In this document: positions 1,753 to 5,112 of the stretch, piece after piece
Layout of the letters: every line of letters begins with the position of its first letter
Numbering within the stretch: the first letter of the stretch is position 1
Source: Saccostrea cucullata
Taxonomy: Eukaryota
Assembly (NCBI RefSeq): GCF_032062105.1
Contig: NW_026925150.1
Coordinates: 128,655-192,654 of the forward strand
Length of the DNA: 64,000 nucleotides
Direction: 5' to 3'
Program-made: the position numbers and the translations under genes
The notes under the pieces: generated by a model
What the model was told of the DNA's origin: nothing
Seen by the model: the letters and a program-made list of their open reading frames with translations, nothing else
Database searches by the model: none

Positions 1753-3654
1753 CTAGTAATGGTCGCAGCCATTGTAATAGCACTCTCCTTCGTCAACCGT
1801 ACAGGTGACATCCGTGATGAAATCATTTCTTTTCCAGAAAACCTCCTCACCCTCCAGTACGGTTTGGAGGACTTGGGTTTGATAAATGGAGTCCTTATTA
1901 GAAGGATCCATGATGTCCGTGTCGATAACGACAAAATCAGCATGTTTTCCTACTTCCAGGGATCCAACATCATCTTCCTGCCGCATAGCGTAAGCGGCAT
2001 TGATTGTATACATCTCCACGGCTGATTTGATGTTGATAGACTGATGTCCTCTAGAAATAGCGTGCTGGAGGCCCACAAAGGGGTTCAGATCACTGACATC
2101 CCAGTCGCTGCTTAGTGTCACCTTAGCCCCAGTGTCAAACACGCTTTTTACGGGAATGGACTTGTACGCCCTGTCTTCTCCAACCAATTTTGAAAGTGTT
2201 TTTCGATAAGAGGGTAGAGTAAAGTTTCCAGCGACTTGGAAGTCAGCAATGACATTTAAACGTGCGAAGCGGTCGATATCCATCTCATCAACTTGTTCCA
2301 AGTGAGTCATTCGATGACGAGTGCCATGGATCCACGAATCATTGAACGCATTCAGTGCTTGATGAACACCACGGTCGCCAATTGCATGAATATGGAAATC
2401 AAAGCCTTTGCCTGCAGCAAAGTGCTGAAGTTCTCTGACGTACTTCGTTAAACGGGTTTGGTCAAAAATATTCATGCCTCTGTTGTCAGGAATACCAGGT
2501 AAATGCAAGTTCTCCAAATAGGGTTCCTCCATGGCGGCGGTTGTACTTTCTAGCAAGCCATCAATGTACACTTTAATTTGATTTTTCTTCAAGAAGCAAT
2601 CTGGGTTACCGTTAGTGTAAATGTCTTTCAGTTTTTGAATTTGGTATTCGTCTTCCTTCTGTGGATATGCCCAAAGTCCAAGATTAGCACGCACCGTCAA
2701 TTTGTCTTCTCTACATACCCTATCCCACGCTTTGTCGTGATTTCGAGTCCAAAACAACCTGGCATCACATACTGAGGTTATGCCATTAGTGTTTAATTTT
2801 TCAAGACCATATATAAGTCCTTGATAATTAAGTTCCTCTAACTCAGCCGTTGGCTTCAAGGCAAATTCCATGATGGATATACCCTCATCCTCTAGAAGAA
2901 TTCCATTAGGCTCATTGGTTACAGGTTCTCTCATGATAACGCCACCAGGTCTTCTCGTTGTGTTTTTTGTGATATTAGCCAGTTGGAGTGCCTTGGTATT
3001 CACCCAAACTGAATGCGATGTTTCCTCCAACATGACAACTGGGACATCTGGTAAAACTTCATCAATTATCTTCCTTGGTGGTTTTCCACCATTCCTGATG
3101 TGTTTCAAAATACTTGATATTGAATGACCGCCTCCAAGAATCCATTTTGTTCCTATCTGCCTTTTGGCACATGTTCTGAAAATGTTTTTAAATTCTTCAC
3201 TATCGGGGTCTGTGTTTGGCTTCAGCTGACATGTACCACCAACATCCGACGCTGACTCTAAGGGATGAATATGGACATCATGGAATCCTGGAAGTATTGT
3301 TGCACCGTGGAGATTCAACACCGTGCTCCGACATGTGAAATACTCCAAAGCCTCACTGGATGTTCCTATGAAACTAACTTTACCGTTTTTCACAACCATG
3401 GCTTCCTGTGGAGTTTCATTCCAGCGTTGACCGTGAACAGTATAAATTTTCCCATTGATGTATATTGTACTGGCTTCTTCCCTGTACCATCTTTGTTCTA
3501 AAACTCTTCGGTCACATTGTTGCTGATCACCGAGTATGCATTGAATTCTCTTCAATAACCGATCTTTGCGAGAAAGTTGTTGGTTGAGCGGAATACTTTT
3601 TCCAGCTGCAAATCCAAGCACTCCGAAAATCATCAGATACTTCACAATTTTCAT
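1753..3654 (-). CDS. Amidohydrolase-3 family (YtcJ-like) metal-dependent hydrolase, intronless, with N-terminal signal peptide or anchor
   Basis: 670-codon minus-strand ORF 1753..3765. Contains GKIYTVHG near the N-terminus, HDVHIHPLES (HxH metal site), FDFHIHAIGDRGV, THLEQV, SSDWDVSD and the C-terminal GSLEVGKHADFVVID motif, all typical of the Amidohydro_3 fold. The hydrophobic MKIVKYLMIFGVLGFAAG segment at the in-frame ATG 3654 argues this is the real start. The ORF is also open upstream to 3765. An AATAAA signal lies on the minus strand at 1682..1687. Confidence 0.85.
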   Translation of the reverse strand: MKIVKYLMIFGVLGFAAGKSIPLNQQLSRKDRLLKRIQCILGDQQQCDRRVLEQRWYREEASTIYINGKIYTVHGQRWNETPQEAMVVKNGKVSFIGTSSEALEYFTCRSTVLNLHGATILPGFHDVHIHPLESASDVGGTCQLKPNTDPDSEEFKNIFRTCAKRQIGTKWILGGGHSISSILKHIRNGGKPPRKIIDEVLPDVPVVMLEETSHSVWVNTKALQLANITKNTTRRPGGVIMREPVTNEPNGILLEDEGISIMEFALKPTAELEELNYQGLIYGLEKLNTNGITSVCDARLFWTRNHDKAWDRVCREDKLTVRANLGLWAYPQKEDEYQIQKLKDIYTNGNPDCFLKKNQIKVYIDGLLESTTAAMEEPYLENLHLPGIPDNRGMNIFDQTRLTKYVRELQHFAAGKGFDFHIHAIGDRGVHQALNAFNDSWIHGTRHRMTHLEQVDEMDIDRFARLNVIADFQVAGNFTLPSYRKTLSKLVGEDRAYKSIPVKSVFDTGAKVTLSSDWDVSDLNPFVGLQHAISRGHQSINIKSAVEMYTINAAYAMRQEDDVGSLEVGKHADFVVIDTDIMDPSNKDSIYQTQVLQTVLEGEEVFWKRNDFITDVTCTVDEGECYYNGCDHY

Positions 3655-5112
3655 GCTGCCGATCACACTTTTCCGAAAAACTGACAAAATCCAGTTTTTA
3701 AACCTTTTTAAGGTGGATCTATACCTAGGAAGGAATTTACAGAAACACAACCGAGACAGAATCAATATTATTTTTAAAAATAGATATAAAAATACAATTA
3801 AAATTATTTTTACAATAACACCCCGGAAACGTTTTATTTGCTGACGAAGTTTTCAACACAAAACTGCAATTGTGACACGGTCAACATTAGATCCTACGTA
3901 AAATACAGTAATGATTAATTGTTCATGTTTTTATTTGCTTTTTTGAAAACTCAATTACTACACACCACTAAGCTTCCGTAACAGGTGTTTTAGTCGTTAA
4001 CATGTAAACAATAGCCATTGAATAACATCTGAATCAACAGTTCTCTGATCCGAGTGCAAAAAGAAAAATATGCGAAAAAACAGCATACTTCGTGTAAGTT
4101 ATTTAAAGAAGACTGAGATAATGATAAACATGGATGTGCATAAAAAAAATAATCAAAATTGTTGCTTTCCCTACTCTATAATGTGTTATATACCACATAC
4201 ATGTAGATGTACATTGTATTAAATAACATCAACGTTTTTGCTTCGGTGCCCATGAACAATTCTTCGTAGTCTTTAGACAAGACAAAGTGAAATACAGGCA
4301 ATGGACTCTAATATACACGGTAAAAGTGTCAAAATTCTTAAACATTTTCTTTGAAATTAAACAAATTCCTTATTAATTGAAGGTTTTATATTTCCTTTTG
4401 AATTTATTATCATTTTTTTTTTGCGTTGATTTTTTAAAAACATGATTGTCACTTTCAACAACATGCGACCCGGCATACTTCGAGAAACCATGTTCAAAGC
4501 CACTGAAGTTCTGATGACTAGATATAACTGCATGTTGTTTCCTGTTGCTCCCTTAATAGGGACAAATACATGCAAATTATTATATATGTTCTCCTATTCA
4601 AATATTACTTAAGGTATTGAAAAAAAAAAATAAATTTAAAATAAAATCTATTTCGCTTTCAATCTCATGAAATTTTACTCGATCTGTCCAAAAGTAAAGA
4701 CAAATTAATATTCCTTTTCCCGAATGTGTTTAGACAGTTCTCAATATATTTCTTTTCTCTTTCCATCTCAAAACATGTAATGGGTAGTGCATTTTTTTTT
4801 TTAATTTTCAATTTTCCCTATCTTACCATCTCTGATAAATCGTAGTTATGTATAATGCATGCATTGACTATATTGAGATACAGATACGTTATGCCTGGTA
4901 GATTCCAATGAATTCAGGTCCGTGATTTTAATGTTTAGATATTCATTGAAGTGCTAGCGTTCAACGAATACTTTAAAAACAACCTTTAACCCAAAATTTC
5001 AATGACGCTCTTTTCCCCATTCATCCCTGTAAACTTCCGTGTTTATTAATTTTATACGATAAGAGTTATTTTCACTTCCCTGGCTTATGCAGTGGACATT
5101 AACCTAAACGAT

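What the first reader, a model, noticed from the sequence alone, without database searches (positions are those of the whole stretch)
1753..3765. Intronless, GC-richer, secreted Amidohydro_3 hydrolase next to the TLR cluster: candidate horizontally acquired or immune-associated enzyme
A continuous 634-670-codon ORF with every hallmark of bacterial-type YtcJ-like amidohydrolases sits divergently, head-to-head, 1.46 kb from TLR-A. Its composition is visibly GC-richer than the flanks, it has no introns and it has a signal peptide. This family is overwhelmingly prokaryotic/fungal, so it is worth testing for HGT origin and for co-regulation with TLR-A from the shared 3655..5112 intergenic region.
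Basis: partly seen in the sequence, partly recalled or inferred. Interest (0 to 1): 0.55.

Follow-up and report, generated by a model that had tools for sequence, protein, structure and literature searches.

The report
Oyster amidohydrolase gene of bacterial ancestry
This is an intact, selectively maintained oyster gene for a secreted metal-dependent hydrolase of the bacterial YtcJ type. Bivalves most likely acquired it from marine bacteria hundreds of millions of years ago, and it has sat beside a Toll-like receptor gene in oysters ever since; its substrate is unknown.

Summary
Window 1753..3654 (-) is one uninterrupted 633-codon gene for a YtcJ/Amidohydro_3 hydrolase. It has an N-terminal signal peptide and lies head-to-head, 1458 bp, from an LRR-TIR receptor gene.

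It is not a recent import or an assembly artefact. The same TLR–hydrolase–major-vault-protein order occurs in Saccostrea echinata and Ostrea edulis. dN/dS against S. echinata is 0.11. Codon usage matches host genes rather than bacterial homologues. The GC excess is ordinary for oyster coding DNA; the TLR genes are the AT-rich outliers.

The protein belongs to a 38-cluster clade (99.5–100% bootstrap as an unrooted split). Its named members are five bivalve orders and one copepod. Three shared insertions define the clade. Most copies have no intron, but one Mytilus copy has gained one. Everything else within reach is bacterial, mostly marine, at 43–51% identity, which is as close as bivalve orders are to each other.

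An ancient bacterium-to-animal transfer followed by full domestication is the best reading. Rooting with a distant archaeal outgroup was not decisive.

All six binuclear-metal ligands are invariant, so the enzyme is probably active. No characterised enzyme is close, so the substrate is unknown.

No evidence supports co-regulation with the TLR or an immune role.

The parts
1753..3654 (-). Complete single-exon coding sequence of the amidohydrolase (633 codons plus TAG stop at 1753-1755).
   Evidence: ORF list. Pfam Amidohydro_3 E=8e-76, full-length match. 90% identical to the S. echinata 'putative amidohydrolase YtcJ' of the same length. dN/dS 0.108.
3598..3654 (-). Codons 1-19, MKIVKYLMIFGVLGFAAGK: predicted cleavable signal peptide, with likely cleavage AAG|KS.
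   Evidence: Hydrophobicity profile and charge pattern. The same layout occurs in oyster, unionid and venerid homologues. AlphaFold gives low confidence for residues 1-60. SignalP was not run.
3514..3540 (-). Codons 39-47, CILGDQQQC: a Cys-x7-Cys motif between the signal peptide and the catalytic domain. It is shared by several animal homologues and absent from bacterial ones.
   Evidence: Alignment A1, columns about 113-165. Cys positions 39 and 47.
1837..3321 (-). Amidohydro_3 catalytic domain (residues 112-606).
   Evidence: Pfam coordinates. AlphaFold2 model has pLDDT above 90 across most of this span. Foldseek best hits are 3icj and 3igh, E 1e-34 and 2e-33, TM 0.80.
3265..3273 (-). H128-I-H130, the HxH metal-binding motif within GFHDVHIHPLE.
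   Evidence: Invariant in all 36 animal and bacterial sequences of alignment A1.
2572..2574 (-). K361 (QIKVYIDG), at the position of the carboxylated bridging lysine of binuclear amidohydrolases.
   Evidence: Invariant in A1. Aligns with VKLFVDG of 3icj. Carboxylation is inferred from knowledge of the superfamily.
2104..2388 (-). Span holding the remaining metal and catalytic residues: H423 (2386-2388), H451 (2302-2304), D517 (2104-2106).
   Evidence: All invariant in A1.
1756..1815 (-). C-terminal tail found only in oysters (residues 614-633, DVTCTVDEGECYYNGCDHY) with three cysteines.
   Evidence: Present only in the oyster sequences of A1. Low model confidence at the end of the tail (residue blocks 621-630 and 631-633: mean pLDDT 57 and 36).
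1682..1687 (-). AATAAA polyadenylation-signal candidate 65 nt after the stop codon. A second candidate lies at 1592-1597.
   Evidence: Read directly from the sequence. Collinear similarity to S. echinata ends at 1593. No transcript data were available.
3655..5112 (.). 1458-bp intergenic region between the divergent amidohydrolase and TLR-A start codons.
   Evidence: 64% identical to the 1485-bp S. echinata counterpart. No detectable similarity to the 5.86-kb Ostrea counterpart.
5113..7782 (+). TLR-A, the single-exon LRR-TIR receptor gene that is the divergent neighbour. It is context, not a demonstrated functional partner.
   Evidence: Pfam LRR_8 and TIR. 82% aa identity and dN/dS 0.21 against S. 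echinata.

Best explanation
The locus is a functional nuclear oyster (Saccostrea) gene for a secreted, soluble metallo-hydrolase of the YtcJ / COG1574 / Pfam Amidohydro_3 type.

Mechanism, inferred from the amidohydrolase superfamily: a TIM-barrel holds two divalent cations. They are bound by H128/H130, a carboxylated K361, H423 and H451. The bridging hydroxide attacks the carbonyl of an amide-type substrate, and D517 passes the proton to the leaving group.

The substrate is unknown. The conserved signal peptide and the added cysteines suggest that the enzyme acts outside the cell, for instance in mucus, haemolymph or the digestive lumen. A likely target there is a small amide or peptide-like compound of microbial or dietary origin.

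Evolution: the gene belongs to a bivalve-centred animal clade. That clade most probably arose from a single ancient transfer from a marine bacterium before the living bivalve orders diverged. The gene has since been fully domesticated, as shown by:
- a eukaryotic signal peptide;
- host codon usage;
- a Kozak context and a polyadenylation signal;
- duplication into two oyster paralogues;
- gain of an intron in one mussel copy;
- strong purifying selection.

Its position beside a TLR is conserved oyster microsynteny (TLR–hydrolase–MVP), not demonstrated co-regulation.
For: Shown:
- Family membership and full-length domain.
- All six metal and catalytic residues invariant across 36 animal and bacterial sequences.
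- Confident model (pLDDT 89, pTM 0.85) matching the YtcJ-like structures 3icj and 3igh.
- dN/dS 0.108 at dS 0.46 against S. echinata.
- The same TLR–AH–MVP order in S. echinata and O. edulis chromosomes, with 81% collinear DNA identity to S. echinata.
- Host-like codon usage.
- Signal-peptide features.
- AATAAA 65 nt after the stop.

Clade:
- 38 protein clusters form one split at 100% and 99.5% bootstrap.
- It holds all named animal sequences: Ostreida, Mytilida, Unionida, Venerida, Arcida and Tigriopus.
- Its unnamed members lie on AT-rich, gene-poor contigs or on polyadenylated cDNA.
- All its aligned members share two insertions, and most share a third. All three are absent from the aligned bacteria and from the archaeal 3icj.
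- A profile built only from animal sequences recovered no further named animal among 5.8 billion proteins.

Nearest outsiders: Chloroflexota, Deinococcota, Acidobacteriota and marine Gammaproteobacteria at 43-51% identity. That is about the distance between bivalve orders, and about the distance between the bacterial subgroups themselves.

Gene structure: the coding sequence is a single exon in Saccostrea, Ostrea, Crassostrea and Sinanodonta. There is one 910-nt GT..AG intron in Mytilus trossulus.

Expression of a relative: an 'amidohydrolase ytcJ' protein was detected in C. gigas by shotgun proteomics (PMC4531390).
Against: - Direction and rooting are not proven. With the only available outgroup (3icj, about 26% identity), animal monophyly fell to 62%. 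The root fell on the animal stem in 18% of replicates, which is the topology expected for an old vertically inherited gene.
- Trees were neighbour-joining on corrected distances, not maximum likelihood.
- The unnamed clade members could not be assigned to taxa, so the gene may be wider among invertebrates than the named records show.
- No expression data exist for this gene in this species.
- No activity or substrate is known for any close relative. PDB sequence, profile and fold searches gave only uncharacterised proteins. Bacterial gene neighbourhoods gave no metabolic clue.
Confidence: 0.7

Rival explanations
1. Old animal or eukaryotic gene inherited vertically. It was lost from most animal lineages, retained in bivalves and a few other invertebrates, and evolved slowly enough to stay about 50% identical to bacterial homologues.
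For: The outgroup-rooted bootstrap placed the root on the animal stem in 18% of replicates. An unrooted split alone cannot show that the clade is nested. The clade contains a copepod and several unidentified eukaryote-like members, so the true distribution is uncertain.
Against: Three searches of 5.8 billion proteins, one with an animal-only profile, named no eukaryotes other than bivalves and Tigriopus near the clade. The animal clade is no farther from the Chloroflexota-like bacteria (mean identity 0.50) than bacterial subgroups are from each other (0.46-0.54), and it is consistently closer to that subgroup than to the others. The near-universal lack of introns is unusual for an old animal gene. 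Vertical descent would need very many independent losses.
Confidence: 0.17
2. Recent horizontal acquisition, bacterial contamination or a chimeric assembly specific to this genome.
For: Bacterial-type family, no introns, and higher GC than the surroundings.
Against: The orthologue sits in the same place, with the same neighbours, in S. echinata and O. edulis. Synonymous divergence of 0.46 with dN/dS of 0.11 shows long residence under selection. Codon usage is host-like. The best bacterial identity is only 51%.
Confidence: 0.01
3. Immune effector coupled to TLR-A: the two divergent genes share a bidirectional promoter. On this view the secreted hydrolase acts on a microbial amide (a signal, toxin or cell-wall-derived compound) as part of the TLR response.
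For: The head-to-head arrangement with a TLR is retained in two Saccostrea species and in Ostrea. The product is secreted. The closest bacterial homologues come from marine, often animal-associated bacteria.
Against: The spacing is 1.46-1.49 kb in Saccostrea but 5.86 kb in Ostrea, and no intergenic similarity is detectable between them. The other oyster paralogue, in C. angulata, has no TLR neighbour. The M. trossulus and Sinanodonta loci list no TLR among their called genes. No expression or functional data were found. Conserved gene order over this distance is expected without any functional link.
Confidence: 0.1
4. Processed retrocopy or decaying pseudogene of an intron-containing parent gene.
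For: It is intronless, and a paralogue exists elsewhere in oyster genomes.
Against: Both oyster paralogues and the unionid gene are intronless. The frame is intact. Catalytic residues are invariant. dN/dS is 0.11. No poly(A) remnant or target-site duplication was noticed in the flanks I read.
Confidence: 0.02

Closest known systems
YtcJ-like metal-dependent hydrolases (COG1574, Pfam PF07969 Amidohydro_3), represented structurally by the uncharacterised Pyrococcus proteins PDB 3ICJ and 3IGH
   Same: Full-length domain match. Same fold (Foldseek E 1e-34, TM 0.80 on the target). Same HxH / Lys / His / His / Asp metal-ligand set.
   Different: Only about 22-26% identical. The oyster protein adds a eukaryotic signal peptide, an N-terminal Cys-x7-Cys segment, three internal insertions and a Cys-rich C-terminal tail. 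Neither PDB protein has a known substrate, so the comparison does not give a function.
Secreted or lipoprotein YtcJ-type amidohydrolases of marine bacteria (Chloroflexota/Anaerolineales MAGs, Sulfidibacter corallicola, Aliikangiella, Pseudoalteromonas, Endozoicomonas)
   Same: 43-51% identity over the whole catalytic domain. Also exported: most have an N-terminal signal ending in a lipobox-like Cys. Same invariant residues.
   Different: They lack the three animal-specific insertions and the Cys-rich ends, have bacterial codon usage, and sit in bacterial gene contexts.
'Putative amidohydrolase YtcJ' genes annotated in other bivalves (S. echinata, O. edulis LOC125677410, C. angulata, Mytilus spp., Ruditapes, Sinanodonta)
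   Same: Orthologues or paralogues in the same 38-member clade. 90% (S. echinata) and about 74-75% (O. edulis) identical, with the same neighbours.
   Different: This copy belongs to oyster paralogue group A, the one next to a TLR. C. angulata, M. gigas, C. virginica and the S. cucullata LOC134229051 copy fall in group B; the one group-B locus examined, C. angulata, is elsewhere in the genome.
Phage-type lysozyme genes co-opted by bivalves through horizontal transfer (PMC5303276)
   Same: A precedent for a prokaryote- or phage-derived hydrolase gene fixed and retained across bivalve subclasses (abstract seen).
   Different: Different enzyme family and a known substrate (peptidoglycan). That case covers Heterodonta and Palaeoheterodonta, whereas this clade also includes Pteriomorphia. 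I read only the abstract of that paper.

Membership tests
Pfam Amidohydro_3 / COG1574 YtcJ-like amidohydrolases | Profile match above the curated threshold over the whole domain | tested here: met
   256.8 bits against a cut-off of 29.7; profile positions 2-472 of 472.
Pfam Amidohydro_3 / COG1574 YtcJ-like amidohydrolases | Metal-ligand set of binuclear amidohydrolases: HxH, bridging Lys, His, His, Asp | tested here: met
   H128, H130, K361, H423, H451 and D517 are invariant in 36 sequences and align with the corresponding 3icj motifs.
Pfam Amidohydro_3 / COG1574 YtcJ-like amidohydrolases | TIM-barrel catalytic domain with the family's accessory beta domain | tested here: met
   AlphaFold2 pLDDT 89.1. 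Foldseek top hits 3icj and 3igh, probability 1.00, TM 0.80.
Pfam Amidohydro_3 / COG1574 YtcJ-like amidohydrolases | Metal-dependent hydrolytic activity | not testable with these tools
   Needs purified protein. No close characterised homologue was found.
NCBIfam equivalogs of named amidohydrolases (guanine deaminase, HutI, PhnM, NagA and others) | Score above the equivalog cut-off | tested here: not met
   The best is 47 bits against a cut-off of 375. All hits are short C-terminal matches.
Horizontally acquired bacterial gene in an animal genome | Physically integrated among native host genes, and reproducible across assemblies | tested here: met
   TLR upstream and MVP downstream in S. echinata and O. 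edulis. Collinear with the window over 6.3 kb.
Horizontally acquired bacterial gene in an animal genome | Patchy distribution in animals, with the nearest outside relatives bacterial | tested here: met
   Named eukaryotic members are bivalves and one copepod only. All other top hits are bacterial or metagenomic.
Horizontally acquired bacterial gene in an animal genome | Rooted phylogeny nesting the animal clade inside donor diversity with strong support | tested here: inconclusive
   The animal clade is one split at 99.5-100%. With the 3icj outgroup the root fell on the animal stem in 18% of replicates, and inside the animal clade in about 38% (probable long-branch artefact). Indel polarity and relative distances favour a bacterial origin.
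Horizontally acquired bacterial gene in an animal genome | Evidence of function in the host (selection, expression) | tested here: met
   dN/dS 0.108. A related C. gigas protein was detected by proteomics. A clade member was found as polyadenylated cDNA. Expression of this exact gene was not tested.
Bidirectional-promoter gene pair co-regulated with TLR-A | Short, conserved divergent intergenic region (conventionally under about 1 kb between start sites) | tested here: not met
   1458 bp here, 1485 bp in S. echinata at 64% identity, and 5856 bp in O. edulis with no detectable similarity.
Bidirectional-promoter gene pair co-regulated with TLR-A | Correlated expression | not testable with these tools
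   No expression data were available.

The most novel reading that the evidence does not exclude
A bacterial exo-enzyme gene was captured before the radiation of living bivalves and has been kept for several hundred million years as a secreted enzyme. In oysters one copy has stayed locked head-to-head with a Toll-like receptor because the two act together. On this reading the hydrolase destroys or processes a microbial amide compound (a signal, toxin or wall fragment) as an arm of innate immunity or microbiome control.
Probability: 0.08. Interest if true: 0.65.

Novelty: new member of a known kind. Interest (0 to 1): 0.35.

Why it matters
Well-supported transfers of bacterial genes into animals that stay functional over long periods are few. 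A published compendium ranks Mollusca lowest among its seven most-affected phyla (PMC13342648).

This family would add a clean bivalve-wide example. It shows the full series of domestication steps: signal peptide, added cysteines, insertions, duplication and intron gain. None of the papers I could search describes it as a transfer.

The practical value is limited by the unknown substrate. The gene itself is already annotated in related oysters, and the suggested link to TLR signalling has no support so far.

Tried and rejected
- **First two outgroup trees.** These contained empty rows from failed ORF extraction (Chloroflexota B28, Deinococcales, Marinobacterium), which produced spurious groupings. 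I discarded them and reran the analysis cleanly.
- **Rooting with 3icj.** The outgroup is too distant to be decisive.
- **Function from solved structures.** Sequence, profile and fold searches returned only uncharacterised or generic amidohydrolases.
- **Function from bacterial gene neighbourhoods.** The only recurrent neighbours were a sensor kinase and a LysR regulator, mostly upstream (on my reading mainly in the Alteromonadales-type loci). There was no metabolic operon.
- **NCBIfam equivalogs.** None came near its threshold.
- **Taxonomic identity of the unnamed clade members.** Cluster look-up named only Ostrea, C. virginica and Mytilus. The run and sample accessions SRR29645012, SRR31522738, ERZ27296412 and ERZ2507xxxx could not be resolved offline.
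- **Literature.** I searched for YtcJ/amidohydrolase with HGT and bivalves or molluscs. The only relevant result was one proteomics mention in C. gigas. The supplements of the HGT compendium are not held.
- **GC content and codon usage as a foreign signature.** Rejected once the gene was compared with native multi-exon genes.
- **S. cucullata paralogue (P0004).** No contig is on record for it.
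Full report
**1. What is in the sequence**

The reverse strand of window 1753..3765 is one open frame of 670 codons. The in-frame ATG at 3654 has A at -3. From there the frame encodes 633 residues and ends at a TAG (1753-1755).

An AATAAA lies 65 nt after the stop (1682-1687) and a second at 1592-1597.

Pfam Amidohydro_3 matches at E=8e-76 over the whole profile. No NCBIfam equivalog of a named enzyme comes near its cut-off.

The first 19 residues look like a cleavable signal peptide. 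Two lysines precede a 13-residue hydrophobic core, followed by AAG|KS. No other hydrophobic segment exists in the protein.

The neighbour at 5113..7782 (+) is an LRR-TIR receptor, and a second one lies at 15302..17956. The two divergent start codons are 1458 bp apart.

**2. Whose gene it is**

The best match is the 633-aa 'putative amidohydrolase YtcJ' of Saccostrea echinata, at 90% identity. The window and the S. echinata chromosome are collinear over 6.3 kb at 81% identity. That stretch covers the TLR, the spacer and the hydrolase.

In S. echinata and in Ostrea edulis the order is TLR (divergent) – hydrolase – major vault protein. Three independent assemblies agree, so contamination and chimerism are excluded.

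Against S. echinata the hydrolase has dS 0.46 and dN/dS 0.108. TLR-A has dN/dS 0.21, and the spacer is 64% identical. The gene has been under purifying selection in oysters for a long time.

**3. Composition**

| Sequence | GC | GC3 |
|---|---|---|
| Hydrolase (window) | 0.429 | 0.414 |
| TLR ORFs (window and S. echinata) | 0.34-0.35 | 0.33-0.35 |
| MVP exon pieces (S. echinata, downstream neighbour) | 0.475 | 0.458 |
| C. angulata hydrolase paralogue | 0.482 | 0.526 |
| Dynein exon pieces beside the C. angulata paralogue | 0.497 | 0.652 |

RSCU of the gene correlates with the TLRs (r 0.73-0.75) and with pooled native genes (r 0.79). It does not correlate with the Chloroflexota (-0.29), Sulfidibacter (-0.35) or Pseudoalteromonas (-0.09) homologues, and only weakly with AT-rich Aliikangiella (0.21) (all).

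The 'GC-richer' look is thus coding against non-coding DNA, next to unusually AT-rich TLR genes. It is not a foreign signature.

**4. The family in animals**

Three searches of about 5.8 billion proteins were run. One used a profile built only from animal sequences.

They return the same set of roughly 38 protein clusters ahead of, or interleaved with, bacterial proteins. The named members are:
- oysters (Saccostrea, Ostrea, Crassostrea/Magallana);
- mussels (Mytilus spp.);
- Sinanodonta (Unionida);
- Ruditapes (Venerida);
- Tegillarca (Arcida);
- one copepod, Tigriopus.

The unnamed members that I examined lie on AT-rich, gene-poor contigs. One is a polyadenylated cDNA with an AATAAA signal. 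No gastropod, cephalopod, annelid, cnidarian, fungal or plant protein appeared.

In neighbour-joining trees the 38 form one split at 100% (120 sequences) and 99.5% (153 sequences).

Oysters hold two paralogue groups, each at 100%:
- Group A: this gene, S. echinata and O. edulis. This is the group next to a TLR.
- Group B: C. angulata, M. gigas, C. virginica and S. cucullata. In C. angulata the gene lies between dynein and ATXN7L3 genes.

**5. Gene structure**

The coding sequence is a single exon in Saccostrea, Ostrea, Crassostrea and Sinanodonta. The Mytilus trossulus copy has one 910-nt GT..AG intron after about residue 59. This reads as an intron gained after the gene settled in animal genomes.

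**6. Relation to bacteria**

A scan of one genome per bacterial species found 320 relatives. The best are:
- a Chloroflexota MAG (51%);
- Deinococcales/Trueperaceae MAGs (49-50%);
- Pyrinomonadaceae, Sulfidibacter corallicola, Marithrix, Spongiihabitans, Aliikangiella coralliicola, Pseudoalteromonas, Endozoicomonas and Tenacibaculum (43-48%).

These are marine bacteria, many of them associated with animals.

Mean identity of the animal clade to the Chloroflexota-like subgroup is 0.50. That equals the distance between bacterial subgroups (0.46-0.54). It is higher than the clade's identity to the other subgroups (0.445-0.48). One animal member (P0020) is as close to that bacterial subgroup (0.54) as to other animal members (0.536).

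Three insertions mark the animal clade: +4 residues after W78, +7 at 186-192, and +5 at 412-416. Two animal members lack the third. The bacteria and the archaeal 3icj share the short state, so the insertions are derived.

Rooting with 3icj was not decisive:
- animal monophyly fell to 62%;
- the root fell on the animal stem in 18% of replicates;
- in most of the remainder the very long outgroup branch attached inside the animal clade or among bacteria.

Two earlier runs were spoiled by empty rows and are disregarded.

Taken together, the distribution, the distances, the indel polarity and the missing introns make a single ancient transfer the most economical account. I put it at about 0.7. Vertical descent with massive loss is the main rival at about 0.17.

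**7. What the protein does**

The six residues that bind the two metals and shuttle the proton in binuclear amidohydrolases are invariant in all 36 aligned animal and bacterial sequences. They are H128, H130, K361, H423, H451 and D517.

The AlphaFold2 model is confident (pLDDT 89.1, pTM 0.85). Its best structural matches are the YtcJ-like Pyrococcus proteins 3icj and 3igh (TM 0.80). Generic amidohydrolases follow: Cc2672 carboxypeptidase, imidazolonepropionase and ochratoxinase.

None of these fixes a substrate. Profile searches of the PDB did not either, nor did bacterial gene neighbourhoods.

The bacterial homologues mostly carry lipoprotein-type signals. The animal ones carry eukaryotic signal peptides, a Cys-x7-Cys segment and, in oysters, a Cys-rich tail. 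Oyster proteins have 9-12 cysteines against 1-7 in the bacterial ones. The enzyme therefore appears to have been extracellular both before and after the transfer.

I infer a secreted binuclear metallo-amidohydrolase acting on an extracellular amide-type compound. The chemistry follows from the superfamily. The substrate and physiological role are guesses.

A C. gigas 'amidohydrolase ytcJ' protein was detected by shotgun proteomics and was less abundant under high pCO2 (PMC4531390).

**8. The TLR question**

The divergent TLR–hydrolase arrangement is conserved in two Saccostrea species and in Ostrea. However:
- the spacer is 1.46, 1.49 and 5.86 kb respectively;
- nothing in the spacer is detectably similar between Saccostrea and Ostrea;
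- the other oyster paralogue, in C. angulata, has no TLR neighbour, and no TLR is listed among the called genes at the M. trossulus and Sinanodonta loci.

This is conserved microsynteny. Whether it has any regulatory meaning needs expression data.

**9. Novelty and verdict**

The gene is already annotated automatically in related species. Its family and fold are known.

None of the papers I could search describes it as a transfer into bivalves. Bivalve acquisition of a phage lysozyme is a published precedent of the same kind (PMC5303276, abstract).

I rate it a new member of a known kind, with interest 0.35. It is a tidy, well-anchored case of an old, domesticated, probably bacterial gene. It has an unknown substrate and no demonstrated tie to immunity.

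Noticed in passing
window 11698-12789, 33039-33680, 37801-38106: Arrays of a 149-173-bp satellite with a shared consensus (…CCACTGGGCCAGGAAAGATGAAACT…GTGTAGATTCAAGTTTGTTCAAATCATGACCCC…). From memory it resembles the roughly 166-bp oyster Cg170/HindIII satellite associated with Helitron-like elements. This was not tested.
   Followed up: no
window 63182-63997 and 36884-37101: A second tandem-repeat family (147/298-bp units, 5.5 copies, running to within a few bases of the window end), with a related 108-bp repeat 26 kb away.
   Followed up: no
window 53834-53932 and 55489-55618: Two copies of an 11-bp microsatellite (CTGGGACTGCT)n, 1.6 kb apart. It creates a spurious 102-aa ORF.
   Followed up: no
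window 5113-7782 and 15302-17956: Two intact single-exon LRR-TIR receptor genes. Both are unusually AT-rich for coding DNA (GC3 0.33-0.35, against 0.46 in neighbouring MVP exons). TLR-A has dN/dS 0.21 against S. echinata.
   Followed up: partly
proteins P0058 (Tegillarca granosa) and P0041 (Tigriopus): Both public gene models contain internally repeated amidohydrolase segments. They are probably tandem copies or fragments fused by annotation. This lengthens their branches in the trees.
   Followed up: no
L003 10181-11090 (Mytilus trossulus): A 910-nt GT..AG intron interrupts this mussel copy after about residue 59, and the annotated protein lacks a signal peptide. No upstream signal-peptide exon turned up in a crude scan of the 4 kb upstream.
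   Followed up: partly
L056 2317-4899 (Chloroflexota MAG B28T3L11): This bacterial homologue carries an N-terminal extension of about 230-260 aa. It starts with a Pro/Thr-rich linker, and its repeat-like sequence looks to me like a PKD-type domain, although no domain search was run. That suggests a surface-displayed enzyme.
   Followed up: no
L014-L093, upstream of the bacterial homologues: A hybrid sensor histidine kinase (35 of 80 loci) and a LysR-type regulator (19 of 80) recur, mostly upstream of the homologue. On my reading of the loci involved they are mainly Alteromonadales-type genomes, so this is probably lineage synteny rather than a functional clue.
   Followed up: partly
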